In this document: one piece after another, positions 4,141 to 62,135 of the stretch | Layout: the number at the start of each line of letters is the position of its first letter | How positions within the stretch are numbered: the stretch's first letter is position 1 | Notes under the pieces: generated by a model | Told to the model about the DNA's origin: nothing | The model's input: the letters and a program-made list of their open reading frames with translations, nothing else | Databases searched by the model: none | Assembly: GCA_951406725.2 (NCBI GenBank) | Contig: OX597839.1 | Span: 38,440,001-38,504,000, forward strand | Reading direction: 5' to 3' | DNA: 64,000 nt | DNA from: Octopus vulgaris | Taxonomy: Eukaryota | Position numbers and translations under genes: made by a program

Positions 4141-5731
4141 CCTACTCCTCCTATTCCACTTCCTCCTACTCCGACACTAATCTCTCCTACCACTACCACC
4201 TCTCCTCTCACTCAACCACCAAGCTACCCGCTATCCTACTCAAAGCTCCACTGTTGTTGCCCAGCTAACTTTATATTCCGGGTACATTCTACCAACTGTT
4301 TCACAAACTTTCCTCTTTCACCACCACTTCCCCCCTCTCTTCCACCTTACTCTTAGGTATTTATATCATATTTATACATTATATTATTTATATATTATAT
4401 TGTTTATACACCTTCCATTCATATGTCTGTCTGTTCGTCTTACTGGCCTCTGATGTGTGTATATATATATATATACATACATACATATATATATTATATA
4501 CACACATACGTTATCTGTATGTTTATATAGTTTTATAGTATATATTTGCATATAGTTATTGAATATTATCAGTGTGTATAGAATTATATATCGTCCTATT
4601 AAATTACTGTATATATGTAAATCTGTAGTGTGTATATAATATATATATATGTATATATACATACATTATATGTCCCGTCTTTGTGTTCAAACCGTTGTTC
4701 CTCCACATGGGACAATTCTCATATTCTGTATAGATTTGTGTGTGTATATATTGAATGTGTGTGTTTGTGTATATATATATGCCTGTGCATGTATGTATGT
4801 ATGTGTATGTATATATATATATATATATATATATTATACACGTGCGTTGTATAGTGTTTATATACATAAACACGCATACATATAGTGCATATATACACAC
4901 AAAGTCTTATGGCCATGATGGAGCACCGCAGTAAAGCCTTTGTATATATTTTGATTTCTTGGAAAACATGCGTGTTTGTATATGCTATACATATTTTACA
5001 GATGTGTGTATACACATCTTATAAACGTGTATATATACATGACAAAATACCTACACACTGTGTATGTTCCAACATTCGGGCTTGGGTGTTTTTTTTTCTT
5101 CCAGATTTGAAACACTTTTAACATAACGTCCACATGTGTATACACACACATATATATATGTATGTATGTATGTAGAATATATTACTTTATATATAGTACA
5201 CACACACACACATACACTCATCACAGCTGCTTTCTCTGACACTATACACAATATATAGCTTTAAACACACAAAACATATAAAGACTTGCCAACAATTGCA
5301 CCAGACTGGTTTTTTGTCTATTGATGTTGATTAATAATAATAATAATAATGATATGATTTCTGATAGATACGCAAGAGAGGACTGGATGTGTTAGTCGAT
5401 TATATTAATTCAAATTCCGCCGAGGTCGACTTTGCCTTTCATCCTTTCGGGGGTCGATAATAAAGTACCAGTTACGCACTGGGGGGAGGGGTGTCGATGT
5501 AATCGACTTAATCCCTTTGTCTGTCCTTGTTTGTCCCCCTCTATGTTTAGCCCCTTGTGGGCAGTAAAGAAATATATATTATTAATTCTCGTTCGTACTC
5601 CAATAGTACTTTTTTTTTCTATCGACCCAGGAAGGGTGAAAAAGCAAAGTTTAGACGTCAGTGGGATTTGAACTTGGAACGTAAAGTTCACTAAGGTGAT
5701 GATGATGATGATGGTCAAAGGATACAGAGCG

Positions 5732-7126: not shown

Positions 7127-7517
7127 GGGACTGTGTGGTTAGTAGCCCTGCTTACCAACCACATGGTTCCCGGTTCATTTCCACTGCGTGGCACCGTGGG
7201 CAAGTGTCTTCTGAAGCCTCGGGTCCACCAAAGCCTTTGTGAGTGGATTTGGTAGGCGGAAACTGAAAGAAGCCCGTCGTATGTACGTATAATATATATA
7301 TATATATGTATGTGTGTGTATATGTTTGTGTGTCTGTGTTTGTCCCCCCAACATCGCTTGACAACCAATGGTGGTGTGTTTACGTCCGCGTAAACTAGCG
7401 GTTCGGCAAAAGGGACCGATAGAATAAGTACTAAAGAATAAGTCCTGGGGTCGATTTGGTCGACTAAAACCGGTGCTCCAGCATGGCTGCTGTCAAATGA
7501 CTGAAACAAGTAAAAGA
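7127..7517 (+). mobile_element. tRNA-derived SINE family A
   Basis: Pol III A/B-box-like head, CCTTGGGCAAGT-type core, internal (TA/TG)n, 3' ...GACTGAAACAAGTAAAAGA tail. More than 20 full or partial copies in the window. Confidence 0.85.
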
Positions 7518-7534
7518 TATATATATATATACAC

Positions 7535-7896
7535 TCTACTCTCTTTTACTTGTTTCAGTCATTTGACTGCGGCCATGCTGGAGCACCACCTTTAATCGAG
7601 CAACTCGACCCCAGTACTTATTCTATCGGTCACTTTTGCCGGACCGGTAAGTGACGGAGACATAAACACACCAGCATCGGTTGTCAAGCAATACTAGGGG
7701 GACAAACACAGACACATATATATACATACACATATATACGACGGGCTTCTTTTCAGTTTCCGTCTACCAAATCCACTCACAAGGCTTTGGTCGGCCCGAG
7801 GCTATAGTAGAAGACACTTGCCCAAGGTGCCATGCAGTGGGACTGAACCTGGAACCATGTGGCTGGTAAGCAAGCTACTTACCACACAGCCACTCC
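7535..7896 (-). mobile_element. SINE family A
   Basis: Reverse-complement copy adjacent to 7127-7517. Confidence 0.85.
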
Positions 7897-27816: not shown

Positions 27817-28056
27817 TATATATGACCCGGGATGATGGTAGGCACAGAAACCGAATTGAAGATAGCAAGTTTGAATCTTTTACCAGAGTGATTTTGTATC
27901 AATTTGGTAGGCATCGTCCATGTAACAAGATGTGTTGTTTTTATGATTATTATTATTAATGTCTGTTCTTTTCATTCCTTTGTGTCCTTTCTCAAAGACC
28001 TGTGACGCTGAAGAATTAGCGGTGAGTTTGCAAAGAGGGAAGAGAATTAAGCAACA

Positions 28057-28194
28057 ATGCCTCCAAAGAAGAGAATTGGCGATGATGACGCCAGTTTAAA
28101 TGTGAAAAGACGTCGGAAGAAGAATGGCGAAGACATGGAATTCGGTAACAATTCCAGTTTAGATGCTGATTCTGATGATGAAAATTTGGATATT
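28057..28194 (+). CDS. RCC2: RCC2 coding exon 1 (MPPKKRIG...DENLDI), basic NLS-like plus acidic N-terminus
   Basis: ATG at 28057 in ACAATG context. Donor GTAAGT at 28195, phase 0. An upstream acceptor (tcctttctcaaAG at 27996-97) implies a further 5' UTR exon. Confidence 0.85.
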
Positions 28195-31100
28195 GTAAGT
28201 TTAAGATATCTTTTCTTTTTTTTCTCTCTCTCTCTCTTTTATTCGTTTCAGCCCAAAGACTGTGGCCATGCTGGGGCACTGGTGTGTAAATATGTGCTTG
28301 TGTATATCTTCTGGTGTTTGTTTCAGTTGTGGGATTGTGGCCACCTGGAAGGGTTTTAGTCGAACAAATCAGCTCTAGCATTTACCCTTTTTTTTCCCCC
28401 CAAGCTTGTTACTTATTCTATCACTCTCTTTTGTTAAGTTACAGGGATGTAAATAAACCAGCCCTGGTTGTCAAGCAGTGGGCGGGGACAAACGTGTATA
28501 TGTATATTCATATATATATATGTGTGTGTGTGTATATATATATATATATTAATCAAAATAAAAACATGATGCCAAGAATTCAGCGGTACATATGTTTCGG
28601 GCCTTTATTAGACGGATTTATAACAATGCATAATGTGTGTCTATGGCCTTCTTCAGCCGCGCACAATTACTACCTCAAGGACATGTATTACATCAAAAAT
28701 TCTACGTTGGGGATGCAAATCCTCTCATTCGCGTACGACATAATGCGGCAACAGCACAAAAATGAAGCGTCCGACGAGATGGACGCTTCATTTTTGTGCT
28801 GTTGCTGCATTATGTCGTACGCGAATGAGAGGATTTGCATCCCCAACGTAGAATTTATGATGTAATACATGTCCTTGAGGTAGTAATTGTGCGCGGCTGA
28901 AGAAGGCCCGAAACATATGTACCGCTGAATCCTTGGCATCATGTTTTTATTTTGATTAATTTACTCCACCAAACGGTATATACAGGTGCTTACAATTATC
29001 AAGTACTCACCCTGAATTTATATATATATATATATATATATATATCTGAAGCTCACTTTGAGTTCAGTCCCACTGTGTTGCATCTTGGCTAAGTATCTTC
29101 AAAAGCTCCAGTCTGGTCAATACCTTGTGTGTATAAGTACTGGGGTAGATTTGTTTGCCAGCCCCTGTCAAACCATCCGACCCATGGCAACAAAGAAAAA
29201 CAGATATATAGGCGCAGGAGTGGCTGTGTGGTAAGTAGCTTGCTAACCAACCACATGGTTCCGGGTTCAGTCTCACTGCGTGGCACCTTGGGCAAGTGTC
29301 TTCTACTATAGCCTTGGGCCGACCAAAGCCTTGTGAGTGGATTTAGTAGACGGAAACTGAAAGAAGCCCGTCGTATATATATATATATATATATATATGC
29401 GTTTGTGTGTCTGTGTTTGTCCCCCTAGCATTGCTTGACAACCGATGCTGGTATGTTTATGTCCCCGTTACTTTGCGGTTCGGCAAAAGAGACCGATAGA
29501 ATAAGTGCTGGGCTTACAAAAGAATAAGTCCCGGGGTCGAGTTGCTCGATTAAAGGCGGTGCTCCAGCATGGCCGCAGTCAAATGACTGAAACGAGTAAA
29601 AGAGAAAAGAGACCGATAGAATAAATGCTGGGCTTACAAAAGAATAAGTCCCAGGGTCGAGTTGCTCGATTAAAGGCGGTGCTCCAGCCTGGCCGCAGTA
29701 ATGATGAGGATGGATGTATGCTTGTGTCGTGTCTTGACAGCATGTGATAGTTGTCCACAAGCTGTGCCATCTTCGAAAGCCAAGTATCGCTCGTTTCCAG
29801 TCATCCATGAAAAACGTTGTCCAACCATGCGGAGGAAACATTGGCTTTGCATTTCCTTGATCGGAAAACTGGTGAAGGCTATGGCACCACGAAAGGGCAT
29901 TTGGCTGTAAAAAAAAAGAGAGAAAAAATCTGCCTTGATGAATGCTGTGTGGGTGATGCAAGTATGGAAACGGGGCCATAAAAACGATTTTGATGTTTTG
30001 TATTATTATTATTATATATCAGAAACTGGAAGGGTCCCTCGTAAACGGAGAAGTGTTGTTTGCTGGTGGTACCAATTGGTGTATGGTTGGACGCAGCCAT
30101 CTACCTAAAGGAGGTCAGTTTTCTTTCTTACTTTTTTTTATATTTTAACAGTCCGATGGACATGCTACTAAAGTCACTCTTTTTATTTATTTCTAATTGC
30201 TGTCTCACCTCTGTAAGCACCCTGTCCCCTCTCTTCGCTATGTCCCTACTCTACAATCAATGTCACACTCCACTCGGCACTCATTGTGCTACACTCCACC
30301 ATACACAATCAGTATTACATCCCATTCTATACATTAATACAGGGTGGGCCAAAAGTTATGCACACAAAATAAGTTCAATGCAGTCGGGAATTGTCTCAAA
30401 GATAAGCTTTTTTTTTTTTCTTGTTTTTTTTATAAAATTAAATAAAATGCAAAAATGCATTGTACCGCTGAGTCTCCCTGAGAACGACATTAAAGGTACA
30501 CGTGTCTGTGGAATACTCAGCCACATGCACATTAATTTCACGAGCAGGCTGTTCCATTGATCAGGTCAACTGGAACACTTATATCCAAAAAAGTGCCTGA
30601 TCTCCCCTCTTCTAATACTTCATTCTTTGATCACAAATAACTCTTGCCATCATGACCACCCCCACCAAAAACTATTGTGATTTAATATTTTTTGTATTTT
30701 TTTTTCCTTATGTACCCACAGTGAAGAACGGTGGCGGTCACAACCTATGGGGACCGCATCGTATAGCCAACCTTTGCGGAGTGAGGGTGCGTACAGTGGT
30801 TTCTGGCTGCACAGCTTGTCATTGTGTTGTCATCACAGCTGAAGGTCAAGTCATGACATGGGGTGAGTACCAGTTTTATTTGCGTGTGTGGGTTCCTGTT
30901 TTGTGCATCCAGTGAAAAATGGTGTGTTGGGTGACTGAACAGGTTGACAATTGGAGATTAAGAACTAGATCCTGGGGTCACTGTGTGTGTGAGCACCAGT
31001 GTAAAATGATGTGCCAAGTAACTTAGGCATGGTGGACAAATTTTTGATTGTGTACTTCCTGAACCAGTACTTCTATTACTAGGAGCATTCCTTCTATGAC

Positions 31101-38280: not shown

Positions 38281-41200
38281 CATTATTATTTTTATTATTA
38301 TTATCATTATTATTATTATCATTATTATTTTTATTATTATTATTAAAATTATTATTATTATTATCATTATCATCATCATTATTATTATTATTTATCCTAT
38401 TTTCTGCAGGTAGCACTCGATTCCAAAAAACGGGTGTTCACTTGGGGTTTCGGTGGCTATGGACGATTAGGGCACTCGGAACCAAAGGACGAGTTTGTGC
38501 CACGGCACCTGAAATTCTTTGATGGACCAAACCGAGGTGCCGGCCAGATATTTTGCGGCTCAACATTTTGTCTTGCTGTCAATGAATTAGGTGAGTAATT
38601 TACCATTTTTCCAGTCACCCTACTTTGCTATACATTTGTTTCTCTCACTTTGCAACTGTGCAACTGTATGGTTCTGGGTTCAGTCCCACTCTGCAGCACC
38701 TTGGGGAAGTGTCTTCTATAACCCTAGGCTGCCCATATCTGTGTGCTTGTCTTGTGTTTGTCCCTCCCACTAGGCAACTGGTACTTCCATAACTAAGTGG
38801 TTCAACTAAAATCCTTCATAGCAGTGCCCCAGCATGGTCGCAGTCCAATGATTTAACCCTTTAGTGTTCAGATTATTCTATCAAACATAATGCTTATTGA
38901 TTCCCATTGATTTGAATTAATCATGCATTATCTCATATCTTTAAGATCTTGATGGTGTAATTACTTAATGTAGAATAACATTGTAGGGTAGGTGTGAGAG
39001 CCTGGATCTGGTCAGTTTGAACATAAAACAGATTAGCTATTTTTGCCGGATATGGCCGGTTTAAATACTAAAGGGTTAAAGTGGTCATATCCAGCCAAAT
39101 TATTCCATGTTTTATGCTCAAACTGGGCAGATCTGGCCTCTCACACCTATCTTACAATTTTCACCTGAAGAAGGCTGGAGGGGTATATCAGCTGAAACGT
39201 TAACAACAAACAAGATGAGGACAAATATCCGTCGAATGTAAAAATTGTTCCAATGTTCTGTTGCCCTAATGTACTCATGAGGCATTGGTTAACTTGAGGC
39301 TTTAGTTAAAGACAATCTTATTTCTTTATTGCCCACAAAGGGCTAAACATAGAGGGGACAAACAAGGACAGACAAAGGGATTAAGTCGATTAGATCGACC
39401 CCAGTGCGTAACTGGTACTTAATTTATCGACCCCGAAAGGATGAAAGGCAAAGTCGACCTTGGCGGAATTTGAACTCAGACCGTAGCGGCAGACGAAATA
39501 CGGCTACGCATTTCACCCGGTGTGCTAACGATTCTGCCAGCTCGCCGCCGTAAAAGACAATCTTGCTAACTGCCATGCTGTGGGATTGAACCTAAAACTA
39601 TGTAGTTGCAAAGTGAGCTTCTGAACCACACGACCCTTCTGGGGCCCAGAGTCTTGTTATATTTATTGTTTCTGAAACTGAATGCTCTTCTCTTTTGCTC
39701 CTTCTATCACTAAATCAGTCAATATTTATCTGGTCCTATTACATTCTGCACCCTTTTTTTTTTCTTTCTCACTTGTTTGCAGGTAGCCTGTATTTCTGGG
39801 GTCAGACAAAATCAACAGGTGAGGCCTCCATGTACCCGAAACTGGTTCAGGACTTATCAGGATGGAGAGTGAGAAGTGTTGGCTGCTGGTCAGTTTTCTT
39901 TTTTTTTTTTTTTTTCTTTTATGTTTGTGTATGTAATAGATTAGGGCCTGTGGTGGTTTTATTGTCTAGAGCAGGGGTTCTTACTTAACCAACCATTTTT
40001 TTTATCTATGACCCCCCTTCGATTACTACTTCATTCTGGTGGACCCCTTTAGCCATTTGATGTTTAAAAACCAGTTTTATAGAAACTGTTTTTAAAAACC
40101 CCTATTTTGTTTGTCACCCATTAACTTGTGTAGGTTGAAATCTGTAAAATGTTAGAGAAAGAAACCTAGCTGTTTCTTACAATGCATACCAATACATACA
40201 TCTAAAGTAGGGGTTCTCAACTGTTTCTTTGTCTATGGGTCCCTTATTCTGGTGGACCTCTATTGCCATTTGATGTTTAAAAACCAGTTTTATTAAAACT
40301 TCTTTCAAAATTCCTATTTTGCTTTCCACACATTAACCCTTTTGATACTGTATCTATTTTGAGATGCTCTGTGTTTCTTTCAATCAATTTTAAATATAAC
40401 AAAGAATTTAGTAAAGTAACTTAGTTATCATTAAGCTAGTGTTAGGAACATAAATTGTGACTAAGATTTGGTGGAAGATTTTAATTCAAAACTTATGAAA
40501 ACAAGACATTTGTACTACAGAGCCAGAGCCGGTTTCAGCCGGGTTGGTATCAAAAGGGTTAACTTGTGTTGGTTGAACAATGTAACTTAGAAAGATTTCT
40601 GCCTTGCATTGTTAGGTCCTGCCCATGTGGGCCAGCCATTTGGTTGACCCATTCATCACCTGCTCTCCCTTCTCATTACTACAGAACCAGGTTTTTTTAA
40701 TATACTGTGAATTGACTAATGCATTTGTCTCTCTCTCTCTCTCTCTCTCTTTTCTTCCCGTTTCCAGCAACAAGAGTATTGTCGTTGCTGCTGATGAAAG
40801 TGTTGTAAGCTGGGGACCAAGTCCTACATATGGAGAACTGGTATGTGTTAAAGTTATTAGTTGATTTGTTATCATATTTCGGTAGAAACCTAAATGGAGA
40901 TGAAATTTTTATAAAAGGCTTTTATTTAAAACTCTTTAGCAATGTAGCATTTAAACAGGCCGTATGTGGCCCAAATATTTACAACTGACCAGATTCAACC
41001 TCTCACAGTTGCTCTATGATATCATTCTAAAAATATACAAACACATCAATGAAATCTTGGGACTACAAGATTAATTTGTAATCAATTACTCTTTTACTCC
41101 TTTACTTGTTTCAATCATGTGACTGTAGTCATGCTGGAGCACCGCCTTTAGTCGAGCAAATCGACCCGAGGACTTATTCTTTGTAAGCCTAGTACTCATT

Positions 41201-53622: not shown

Positions 53623-53797
53623 TTTGCAATATTGAAATAAACTAGTACTTTAATGCGTTACACAATCTTCAGGTTTATGTAGTGACAATCATGTTCCACA
53701 ATTGACAATAGTTGTCAATTATAGAACACAACTGTCACTACATAAACCTGAAGATTGTGTAACACATGAAAGTACTAGTTTATTTCAATATTGCAAA
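53623..53797. repeat. Fold-back element (~86-bp arms, 3-nt loop)
   Basis: 53623-53708 is the imperfect reverse complement of 53712-53797. Confidence 0.85.
53742..53783 (+). ncRNA. Minimal type I hammerhead ribozyme motif
   Basis: ATAAAC-CTGAAGA-tTGTGtaaCACAt-GAAAGTACTA|GTTTAT: 6-bp stem I, stem II TGTG/CACA, palindromic AGTACT stem III, CUA triplet. Confidence 0.7.
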
Positions 53798-57362: not shown

Positions 57363-57678
57363 TATTATTTTTTTGCTAAAAACAATGTAATTTTCTTTTT
57401 TCCCCCTCCTTGCATTTAAAAAAAAATTTTTTTCTTTGCAATTCTTGAAAAGTCACATTATTACGAAAACCGGTTTGAATTAATATATATATATATATAT
57501 ATATTATCAATTTTTCAAAAACTTTTTCCATACACCCATTTTCATTAAAATTTTCTTTCAATTTAGCATTCTGCCTTTTTACAATTTTTCCTCGCTTATC
57601 ATTTCTCCATGTGCGGTCAACACAATCCCACCATTTATTGATCTATATATATATATCTATATATATATATATATATAT

Positions 57679-57918
57679 AATTAAGACACAAACCTCTATT
57701 TAGTTATTCCATCAATAGTGAAAAGATATTATCTATAATAACCACATAGAAATTAATTAAATATCTTATAATTATTATTCTAAAAATCTCAAAACAAATC
57801 AAATGTTTGATTTTTAGAATAATAATTATAAGATATTTAATTAATTTCTATGTGGTTATTATAGATAATATCTTTTCACTATTGATGGAATAACTAAATA
57901 GCGGTTTGTCTCTTAATT
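57679..57918. repeat. Fold-back element (110-bp arms, 20-nt loop) in (TA)n
   Basis: 57679-57788 pairs with 57809-57918 with about 2 mismatches. Confidence 0.9.
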
Positions 57919-59029
57919 ATATATATATATTGTGAATTTTGATTTAGTGTGCTATATATATATATATAATATAATATGATATAATATAATATAATATAAT
58001 ATATATATATATATTAAGGAAAAGGAGACAGTCAGAATTTTGGATAATTCCTTAATATAAGGTAGAAGAAATTTTTTGTGCATTATACTGTGAAGAATTT
58101 GACTGAATGATTGAAAACGCCAACAAAGAATTATCCAAAATTTTGACTGCCTCCTTCCGTCTTCTTAATATACAATATCTGTACACCACTTCAAACACTA
58201 TATACATGTGTGTGTGTGTTTGTGTGTGTATGCATATATATATGTATATATATGTATGTATGTGTGAATATGTATGCCTGCATATAAGTGTGTATGCATG
58301 TGTGTATTCATACATGTTTGTCCTTGTTTCATTGACAGGAAGAGGATCAAGGAGATTGTATCATTGTATGGTACCTACTGACAGCTAGATAGACTGTGCC
58401 ATTATGTGGTACCTATAAATAGCTATGTAGACTGTACCACTCTGCTGTTTCTACCTAAATCTAGGGGTGGGGACTAATTCAGTTTAGTACTTATTGATAG
58501 CTAGATGGACTGTGCTTAATTAAAATTAGGGGAATGTTGATTAATTAGTAAGAAATGGGTTATGGCTATTTAGCAATATGTGAATTGTGATTAACTAATG
58601 GAAAGTGGATCGTGATTAATTGGTCAATTAATGATAAGGGAACTGTGATTAGGCAGGCCTTGATAGAGTGTAGCAAAATTGAGAGAAAAATCAAAATAAA
58701 GGGTCAGGACAGAAACATATGAAATGAGATCCTGAAGGAATTCCTCAGGGGTGAGGAAGGTGTACCTGAGGTTTATTGACCAGTTCTGAAAATCCTGCAG
58801 TATACATAGGCACAGGTATGGCTGTGTGGTTAAGAAGCTTGCTCCCAGTCTGTGTGTTCTCGGGTTCAATTTCACTACACAGCATGTTGCATGAGGAGTC
58901 CTTTTTTAATATAGCTTTGGACTGATCAAAGCCTTGTGAGTGGATTTGTTGTGAAATAAATTCTCCCCACCCCTCAAAAAAATGTGGTATGTGTCAGTAT
59001 GCATGTGTGCAATTGTACCGCCACCCCGA

Positions 59030-61857: not shown

Positions 61858-61983
61858 TATATATATATATATATATAGTATTCAATAAAGGGTGGAATTT
61901 AATTAATTTAATAAAATTAATCAATTTCACCTAGTAGATTTGTCGGTATGGAAAAGACCATATTTGGTAAGGGTTATAATAGT

Positions 61984-62082
61984 TATAATAAAGGATTAAA
62001 TGCAACAAGTTGCTCAAAACCACATAATATTTTCTAATATTTTCGGTATGTGGTTTTGAGCAACTTGTTGCATTTAACCCTT

Positions 62083-62089
<7 letters not shown>
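61984..62089. repeat. Inverted repeat (43-bp arms) next to (TA)n
   Basis: 61984-62026 pairs with 62047-62089, one mismatch. Confidence 0.85.

Positions 62090-62135
<46 letters not shown>

What the first reader, a model, noticed from the sequence alone, without database searches (positions are those of the whole stretch)
28548..29020. 180-bp hairpin in RCC2 intron 1 with a hammerhead on each arm; the sense copy has lost most of stem II
Seen: a near-perfect fold-back about 350 nt after the first coding exon donor, inserted in the microsatellite of a SINE. The antisense arm has a full hammerhead. The sense arm lacks 45 nt between two AGGCC direct repeats, leaving an intact core with both remaining elements (GGCC, ACATATGT) self-complementary. 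Inference: the RCC2 pre-mRNA carries a long dsRNA stem (ADAR or Dicer substrate) and a potentially self-cleaving motif that is either disabled by the deletion or masked by the hairpin.
Basis: partly seen in the sequence, partly recalled or inferred. Interest (0 to 1): 0.7.

Follow-up and report, generated by a model that had tools for sequence, protein, structure and literature searches.

The report
Folded-back Penelope retroelement stub in RCC2
The hairpin is a short head-to-head double copy of the end of a jumping gene that has well over a thousand copies in this genome; it sits in an RCC2 intron, one copy has lost part of its self-cutting RNA motif, both motifs are predicted to be buried in the hairpin, and it is likely an ordinary neutral insertion.

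Summary
The fold-back is real: 179 paired bases, 3 mismatches, an 8-nt loop, and 45 nt missing from the + arm. It is the 5'-truncated, head-to-head 3' end of a young Penelope-like retroelement (PLE) of the Hydra clade. One 29-nt hammerhead junction occurs 1,732 times in the genome, and about half of a sample sits in such fold-backs. Longer copies carry a reverse transcriptase/GIY-YIG ORF with the Hydra motifs. The long helix II is the family form (1,470 copies); total loss of helix II was found only here. The intact arm folds as a type I hammerhead with a palindromic helix III. The deleted arm cannot, and either fold costs about 56-58 kcal/mol inside the hairpin. The host is RCC2, but this is at least intron 2: an upstream exon ends at 4356. 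Editing, small RNAs and cleavage are untested. Inverted ends, one-sided tails, (TA)n targets and hammerheads are published PLE features, and this scan has reported such octopus fold-backs on other DNA several times.

The parts
4315..4356 (+). 3' end of an upstream, likely non-coding, RCC2 exon; donor GT at 4357
   Evidence: Loose end of a run X20 contig maps only here. The next 12 nt differ from 27986-27997 at 3 places, matching the 3 other letters in the laid contigs.
27998..28194 (+). First coding exon of RCC2 (ATG 28057); donor GT at 28195
   Evidence: Contigs of 4 of 4 RNA-type runs stop fitting exactly at 28194 and go on with other sequence; sequence.
28195..30022 (+). Host intron (intron 2 or later)
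   Evidence: GT at 28195 and AG at 30021-30022. The 3' splice site is predicted from sequence and frame, not shown by a read joint.
28411..28520 (-). Decayed 3' half of a SINE-like repeat next to the left microsatellite
Evidence: 66% over 133 columns to the SINE-like repeat at 29206-29604.
28496..28548 (.). Left (TA)n/(TG)n target microsatellite
   Evidence: Sequence
28549..28772 (-). Inverted, tail-less 3' end (pLTR piece) of the Hydra-clade PLE; family-typical sequence
   Evidence: 98-100% to the 43 best other full-length matches; 99.1% to the 3' end of the ORF-bearing copy in L037
28583..28660 (-). Intact type I hammerhead: helix I GCGG/CCGC, core CUGAAGA+A, 49-nt helix II closed by GGCC/GGCC, C+GAAA, palindromic helix III ACAUAUGU, triplet GUA, predicted cut between 28587 and 28586
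   Evidence: MFE equals the hammerhead fold; helix I p about 0.8, helix II p about 0.87, helix III p about 0.24; z = 0.43 against shuffles
28606..28650 (-). The 45 nt present only in the left arm (one of several equivalent placements because of the AAGGCC repeat)
   Evidence: Alignment gap; family form in 1,470 copies
28773..28780 (+). 8-nt loop: the extra 5' bases of the right arm, joined bluntly to the left arm
   Evidence: Matches element sequence just 5' of the paired part
28773..28959 (+). Sense 3' end of the PLE, with the 45-nt deletion and two private substitutions (28806, 28857)
   Evidence: 0 of 59 and 0 of 68 motif occurrences in other loci carry these letters
28893..28925 (+). Degenerate hammerhead lacking helix II
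   Evidence: The deletion junction occurs once in the genome; alternative fold preferred
28960..29018 (+). PLE tail (start of the next tandem unit, leading toward the ORF start), with a 12-nt deletion between CCACCA repeats
   Evidence: The same sequence lies about 70 nt before the ATG of intact ORFs in L065, L066 and L067; 12-nt gap against sister copies
29019..29045 (.). Right (TA)n target microsatellite
30023..30113 (+). Next RCC2 coding exon (predicted bounds)
   Evidence: Best PDB match RCC2 5gwn_A residues 16-41, E=0.019; downstream exons colinear at 92-135, 261-318 and 380-436

Best explanation
This is a 5'-truncated, head-to-head (fold-back) insertion of the hammerhead-bearing 3' end of a young Hydra-clade Penelope-like retroelement in a (TA)n tract of an RCC2 intron, and it is likely neutral. 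SHOWN: the repeat identity, the link to RT/GIY-YIG ORFs, the one-sided tail, and that the 45-nt deletion is private to this copy. INFERRED: the element's endonuclease nicked the (TA)n, and reverse transcription started at two sites on the element RNA, one at the tail end and one at the tail start, giving one tailed and one tail-less arm joined at coupled 5' truncation points. Whether the second arm came from second-strand priming on RNA or from copy-back on the first cDNA is open. The 45 nt were then lost from the tailed arm between 6-nt repeats that helix II brings together, by slippage or microhomology repair. PREDICTED: in RCC2 pre-mRNA the arms zip into a roughly 180-bp duplex, so nothing self-cleaves. 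The intron is spliced out, and the duplex may be edited incidentally, like other repeat-derived intronic dsRNA.
For: Copy number: 865+867 exact matches of the intact junction, 0 for the control; 1,470 with full-length helix II against 2 shortened. Linkage: the unit ends the element in L037, downstream of an RT + GIY-YIG ORF in two frames, and directly precedes the ATG of intact 842-aa frames in L066 and L067 as a partial tandem. Hydra motifs DKT, CxCX5C, CxxC and CxH are present in 7 of 7 full-length frames as defined in PMC8557442 section 11. Fold-backs: of the first 100 listed matches, 24 pairs are head-to-head within 6 kb, against 1 tail-to-tail and 1 same-strand. The tail is on exactly one arm in 23 of 24 pairs, on neither in 1. 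Arm 5' ends differ by 0-44 nt (median 7) in 13 small fold-backs whose truncation points span about 210 nt. Two RT start sites flanking the tail and extension of both target strands were shown in vitro for another PLE (PMC11167929). Masking costs 56-58 kcal/mol. Spliced-type contigs end at the donor in 4 of 4 runs.
Against: Pfam gave no RVT_1 or GIY-YIG hit for this family's ORF and PDB gave none. RT identity rests on motifs, a weak pairwise match to another PLE ORF (23%, E=2e-6) and Atlas neighbours at 0.96-0.98 that include GIY-YIG and RT clusters. The element (about 4.4-4.8 kb) is longer than typical Hydra elements (<3 kb), and RWK reads RWA. No target-site duplication can be seen in the microsatellite, and no empty allele was found. 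Neutrality is inferred, not tested. No tree was built.
Confidence: 0.92

Rival explanations
1. Co-opted regulatory element: the hairpin is edited or diced, and this changes RCC2 splicing or level, or exposes a hammerhead.
For: Near-perfect 179-bp stem 354 nt from a donor; 121 A's in the hairpin. Cephalopod editing outside coding sequence is concentrated in repeats, UTRs and introns (PMC9068888 passages).
Against: The insertion is young (98-100% to sisters) and one of hundreds of like fold-backs. The + strand motif cannot fold even when freed, and the intact motif is antisense to RCC2. Other long inverted repeats lie in the same gene's introns.
Confidence: 0.04
2. The deleted + copy is a minimal hammerhead that works as a two-molecule dimer sharing one GGCC:GGCC helix II.
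For: The fold is topologically nested and evaluates at -15.1 kcal/mol; PLE hammerheads are proposed to act as dimers (PMC4209133).
Against: It is no better than two misfolded monomers (-15.0) and 9 kcal/mol above the cofold MFE (-24.0). It occurs once in the genome, so it was never amplified, and it is buried in the hairpin.
Confidence: 0.02
3. Assembly artefact (long-read fold-back chimera).
For: Palindromes are artefact-prone, and no laid contig spans the whole structure.
Against: The arms differ by 3 substitutions, a 45-nt gap and a one-sided tail. Both ends stop at family-defined sites in (TA)n, and the same design recurs at 23 other loci examined.
Confidence: 0.02

Closest known systems
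Hydra clade of C-terminal EN+ Penelope-like elements (Craig et al. 2021, PMC8557442; includes Hydra-1_Obim of Octopus bimaculoides)
   Same: RT then GIY-YIG in one ORF; DKT, CxCX5C, CxxC and CxH motifs; (TA)n target; 3' type I hammerhead. Many listed Hydra hammerheads also have an extra unpaired base on each side of helix II (T.T there, A.C here) and a 4-bp helix I. Penelope-13_HM is annotated with a 5'-truncated inverted copy.
   Different: Hammerhead sequence unrelated by eye to the Hydra-1_Obim row, so a different family. Helix II spans 49 nt against about 10-24 nt in the Hydra rows (a PLE-X row in the same table has about 53). 3' UTR is 1.7-2.1 kb and the unit 4.4-4.8 kb, against generally <3 kb. 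RWK reads RWA.
5'-truncated inverted pLTR insertions with a one-sided tail in EN+ PLEs (PMC8557442 Fig. 2 legend; Adineta vaga Penelopes, PMC3846280; anole PAc, PMC11167929)
   Same: Head-to-head arrangement, slightly unequal arms, tail on one arm, microhomology-mediated internal deletions.
   Different: The tail here is about 70 nt (59 after the local deletion) against 30-40 nt, and lies in the 5' UTR rather than in the ORF start. No ORF is left at this locus.
Minimal/palindromic-helix-III PLE hammerheads (Cervera and de la Pena 2014, PMC4209133)
   Same: Type I, short helix I, extra base after A9, palindromic helix III. The cofold gives the double-hammerhead dimer at -37.6 against 2 x -12.9 kcal/mol.
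   Different: No G10.1-C11.1 pair in the best register; a much longer, three-segment helix II.
Non-LTR retrozymes (bioRxiv 10.64898/2026.07.22.740005)
   Same: Non-coding, type I hammerhead, PLE-derived.
   Different: Retrozymes are head-to-tail tandem arrays. Here the copies are head-to-head (24 pairs against 1 same-strand within 6 kb) and belong to an ORF-bearing element.

Membership tests
Hydra-clade PLE | Single ORF with RT followed by C-terminal GIY-YIG, linked to this unit | tested here: met
   818-850-aa open frames with YRDD and VIY...YIG in L064-L068, L071, L072; unit adjacent at both ends. Pfam itself gave no hit; support.
Hydra-clade PLE | DKG motif modified to DKT | tested here: met
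   ADKTG in all 7 full-length frames and in L070
Hydra-clade PLE | CxCX5C linker; CxxC and CxH near the end of the endonuclease | tested here: met
   CNCxxASEC, CQLC and CIH in 7 of 7 full-length frames
Hydra-clade PLE | CCHH motif absent | tested here: inconclusive
   By eye only one Cys-x-n pair pattern unlike the Neptune-type ORF of L038; no alignment to published endonucleases was run
Hydra-clade PLE | N-terminal RWK motif | tested here: inconclusive
   IRWAA at the expected N-terminal place; K replaced by A
Hydra-clade PLE | Insertion into (TA)n | tested here: met
   Both ends here, and nearly all ends printed
Hydra-clade PLE | Hammerhead near the 3' end | tested here: met
   (fold only; activity untested)
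Hydra-clade PLE | Generally shorter than 3 kb (a tendency in the paper, not a diagnostic) | tested here: not met
   At least 4.67 kb in L037; ORF end to unit end 1.7-2.1 kb
Hydra-clade PLE | RT phylogeny groups with Hydra | not tested
   No reference sequences were held as usable data; no tree built
Type I hammerhead (left arm, - strand) | Core CUGANGA / GAAA / UH with helices I, II, III | tested here: met
   MFE structure in both subfamilies; helix III is weak as a monomer
Type I hammerhead (left arm, - strand) | Covariation in the helices | tested here: inconclusive
   Two subfamilies differ at 3 positions in helix II, keeping a 5-bp inner stem by a register shift, not by a paired change; too little diversity
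Type I hammerhead (left arm, - strand) | Self-cleavage | not testable with these tools
   Needs an in vitro assay
Type I hammerhead (right arm, + strand) | Helix II can form | tested here: not met
   Only one GGCC remains; hammerhead-constrained fold -2.9 against MFE -7.5 kcal/mol
Non-LTR retrozyme | Head-to-tail tandem array of hammerhead units | tested here: not met
   Head-to-head pair here

The most novel reading that the evidence does not exclude
This Hydra family carries an active, dimer-gated hammerhead with a 49-nt helix II (two to four times the published Hydra length), and its one-tailed fold-backs record priming at two RNA sites on both nicked target strands. The RCC2 copy, whose tail-less arm kept 45 nt that the tailed arm lacks, would then be a snapshot of the two arms being copied separately from RNA rather than one from the other.
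Probability: 0.25. Interest if true: 0.4.

Novelty: new member of a known kind. Interest (0 to 1): 0.15.

Why it matters
As a locus it matters little: one recent, damaged retroelement stub among more than a thousand. As a family it is a usable resource. It has intact 842-aa ORFs, about 1,500-1,700 near-identical hammerheads with an unusually long helix II, and hundreds of fold-back junctions. These could test how PLEs build inverted ends and whether their hammerheads need a dimer or the element's protein. Intronic fold-backs are also a ready source of perfect dsRNA in an animal group with heavy A-to-I editing, but nothing here shows that this one is used.

Tried and rejected
Rfam: nothing at gathering level in the window and no hammerhead model at E<=10 over 28400-29150; mir-15 and similar hits reflect the palindrome centre. 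Pfam and PDB did not recognise the ORF. The GIY-YIG-like ORF next to L023 is not shared with other copies and was dropped as an unrelated neighbour, as were the L034, L038 and L043 ORFs. Naiad was rejected because the endonuclease is C-terminal. No RNA holder is on record as RNA; the four runs used are RNA by guess. Presence/absence: laying four DNA-type runs was swamped by repeat contigs, and no piece spanned the insertion or an empty site, so no verdict. Editing: the four RNA-type runs showed 1-2 A>G and 2-3 T>C places each, like the DNA runs. A>G at 28643 is in DNA, and the 28687 G is in genomic copies L078 and L083. These are contigs of many family copies and cannot show or exclude editing. 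Unique intron bins without cover in those runs are no evidence. The isolated hammerhead is no more stable than shuffles (z = 0.43). The timing of the 45-nt deletion (at insertion or later) is unresolved: sister arms differ by 0 to about 5% mismatches, so most arm differences are probably post-insertion. Literature searches 'Penelope+hammerhead', 'Penelope+octopus+retrotransposon', 'Penelope+inverted+hairpin+pLTR' and 'hammerhead+octopus' listed no paper on this family. The O. vulgaris repeat paper has no 'hammerhead', 'ribozyme' or 'Hydra' in its main text; its supplements and Repbase/Dfam libraries were not seen and may hold the family.

Full report
OBSERVATION. The inverted repeat is as described. 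Aligning the - strand of the left half with the + strand of the right half gives blocks 28772-28651 / 28781-28902 (122 bases, 2 mismatches) and 28605-28549 / 28903-28959 (57 bases, 1 mismatch), one 45-nt gap and an 8-nt loop. The gap is bounded by a 6-nt direct repeat, AAGGCC. The + arm runs on for 59 nt (28960-29018) with no partner. Both ends abut TA-rich microsatellite. Rfam gives nothing at gathering level and no hammerhead model at E<=10.

HOST GENE. A six-frame motif scan found RCC1-type exons on the + strand. Four of them match human RCC2 (5gwn_A) in order, at residues 16-41, 92-135, 261-318 and 380-436. RCC2 is the top hit for the first (E=0.019) and last (E=9e-21); UVR8 outranks it for the two middle ones, and in the one alignment shown its score is summed over seven repeat matches. 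Contigs of 4 of 4 RNA-type runs (RNA by the tool's guess) stop fitting exactly at the donor, 28194. The loose end upstream of that exon maps once, at 4315-4344, and is followed by 12 nt and a GT at 4357. The hairpin is therefore in intron 2 or later, 354 nt after the first coding exon. That the host is an octopus is my inference from genome size and repeat landscape; earlier scan notes on this genome say the same. The SINE claim holds on the left flank only.

IT IS A REPEAT. The left arm found 1,646 candidates; 40 were scored, giving 52 matches, the 43 best other full-length ones at 98-100%. A 29-nt pattern over the intact helix II/core junction occurs 865 + 867 times, control 0. The deletion junction occurs once, here. 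Between the two core halves, 1,470 copies have a 40-56-nt spacer and 2 have 30 nt or less: this one, and one on C4 that keeps both GGCC strands (spacers of 31-39 nt were not searched). The long form is thus the family form, and the deletion is a private lesion.

WHICH REPEAT. In L037 the unit is the 3' end of a 4.67-kb stretch: a 5'-truncated ORF in two frames with PADKTG, YRDD, CNCISASEC, VIY...YIG, CQLC and CIH, then a 2.1-kb low-complexity 3' UTR. The endonuclease part finds at least 150 matches, the number scored. Of 12 loci fetched around such matches, 7 hold full 818-850-aa frames with all of these motifs, 3 hold long frames lacking one end, and 2 hold no frame of 400 aa; all 12 have the unit nearby. 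In L066 and L067 the hammerhead plus tail runs straight into the ORF's ATG about 70 nt later, and L065 has the tail alone there; 3 other loci have different sequence before the ATG and 2 lacked the ATG motif. So the tail is the start of the next tandem unit. These motifs are the diagnostics of the Hydra clade (PMC8557442, section 11 read whole). Against: Pfam and PDB do not recognise the protein; BLASTP to a Pfam-recognised PLE ORF in L038 gives only 23%, E=2e-6; the Atlas's nearest clusters (0.96-0.98) include GIY-YIG and RT sets; RWK reads RWA; the element is longer than the usual <3 kb; no tree was built. The published octopus member Hydra-1_Obim has a different hammerhead (supplement part 2 of 59), so this is another family.

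FOLD-BACKS ARE THE FAMILY'S HABIT. Among the first 100 of 1,732 listed matches (all on C1), 24 neighbouring pairs within 6 kb are head-to-head, 1 tail-to-tail and 1 same-strand. In 25 loci chosen because they seemed two-armed, 24 gave a pair, including this one; the tail is on exactly one arm in 23 and on neither in 1. In 13 small fold-backs the arms' 5' ends differ by 0-44 nt (median 7) while the truncation points span about 210 nt, so the two arms are made in one coupled event. Inverted 5'-truncated copies with a one-sided tail are textbook for PLEs (PMC8557442 passages; PMC3846280 passages, which also reports microhomology-mediated deletions and small-RNA silencing). For an anole PLE, both target strands are cut and extended and RT starts at two sites that bracket the tail; its hammerhead cleaves only with protein and is dispensable for insertion in vitro (PMC11167929, parts 1-2 of 4). 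Applying this here is inference.

THE HAMMERHEADS. The isolated intact 82-mer folds, as its MFE (-12.9 kcal/mol), into helix I (p about 0.8), a three-segment 49-nt helix II (closing pairs p about 0.87) and a 2-bp helix III (p about 0.24). Two copies cofold into the double-hammerhead dimer (-37.6), as proposed for PLE hammerheads, which cleave weakly in vitro (PMC4209133, parts 1-2 of 4). The fold is not more stable than shuffles (z = 0.43), and the second subfamily keeps it by a register shift, not by covariation. The deleted + copy prefers another fold (-7.5 against -2.9; helix I p 0.02-0.03). A dimer sharing one GGCC helix scores -15.1, equal to two misfolded monomers and 9 above the cofold MFE. 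Inside the hairpin either hammerhead costs 56-58 kcal/mol, and helix I probability is about 1e-38 even for transcripts ending just past the motif. On the RCC2 strand the partner arm is transcribed first, so masking should be immediate (inference).

THE DELETION. The + arm carries two private substitutions (0 of 59 and 0 of 68 motif occurrences elsewhere; 17 loci were dropped, being this locus or overlaps, and some overlap may remain), the 45-nt deletion, and a 12-nt deletion between CCACCA repeats in the tail. The left arm's one difference is also seen in 3 of 80 other occurrences. Sister fold-backs range from identical arms to about 5% mismatch, which suggests ageing after insertion. Microhomology loss across the helix II hairpin, at insertion or afterwards, explains the lesion; I cannot order the events.

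RNA FATE. No test of editing, dicing or cleavage was possible with contigs (see Tried and rejected). Squid data show editing of repeat-derived intronic and UTR RNA to be common (PMC9068888 passages), so incidental editing is plausible and would not imply function. Other long inverted repeats lie in RCC2 introns (7131-7889, 38977-39161).

VERDICT. Observation largely right, with intron number and SINE context corrected. It is a new member of a known kind. I also read part 1 of 5 of bioRxiv 10.64898/2026.07.22.740005 and passages of PMC13282606. After I had reached this reading, the scan's own unreviewed notes showed the same kind of element on other DNA, including long helix II and one-sided tails; none overlap this place or sequence. 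Interest 0.15.

Noticed in passing
window 53623-53797: Another fold-back (90% over 175) with a CTGAAGA...GAAA core on both strands and a short TGTG/CACA helix II flanked by T on each side, like the Penelope-14_HM row; likely a second Hydra-type family.
   Followed up: no
window 38977-39215: Decayed inverted repeat (73%) in an RCC2 intron, next to a minimal-hammerhead-like core at 39165; the isolated piece does not fold as a hammerhead.
   Followed up: partly
window 7131-7889, 57667-57930, 61975-62099: Further long palindromes (77%, 94%, 83%); the first lies in the 23.6-kb RCC2 5' intron. No canonical core was found there by the scan.
   Followed up: no
window 4357-27997: RCC2 has a 23.6-kb intron between an upstream exon and the first coding exon.
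   Followed up: partly
L020/L026 (G000:C1:113257011-113257782): A fold-back whose centre holds several short re-copied pieces of the same 35-60 nt, suggesting repeated template jumps at the junction.
   Followed up: no
L037:6950-7170 and L067 ORF: Asn/Thr/Gln-rich low-complexity linker between RT and endonuclease, reminiscent of the N-rich inserts described in Adineta Penelopes.
   Followed up: no
L037 against L064, L065, L068, L071, L075: Two subfamilies are about 88-90% alike in the ORF, 74-80% in the 3' UTR, and 89-93% in the terminal hammerhead region, hinting at constraint on the 3' end.
   Followed up: partly
L038:5466-7982, L043:501-3470, L034:7688-9247: Other PLE ORFs lie near family copies: two Neptune-like ones with RVT_1 and GIY-YIG Pfam hits (L038, L043) and a diverged Hydra-like one (L034).
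   Followed up: no
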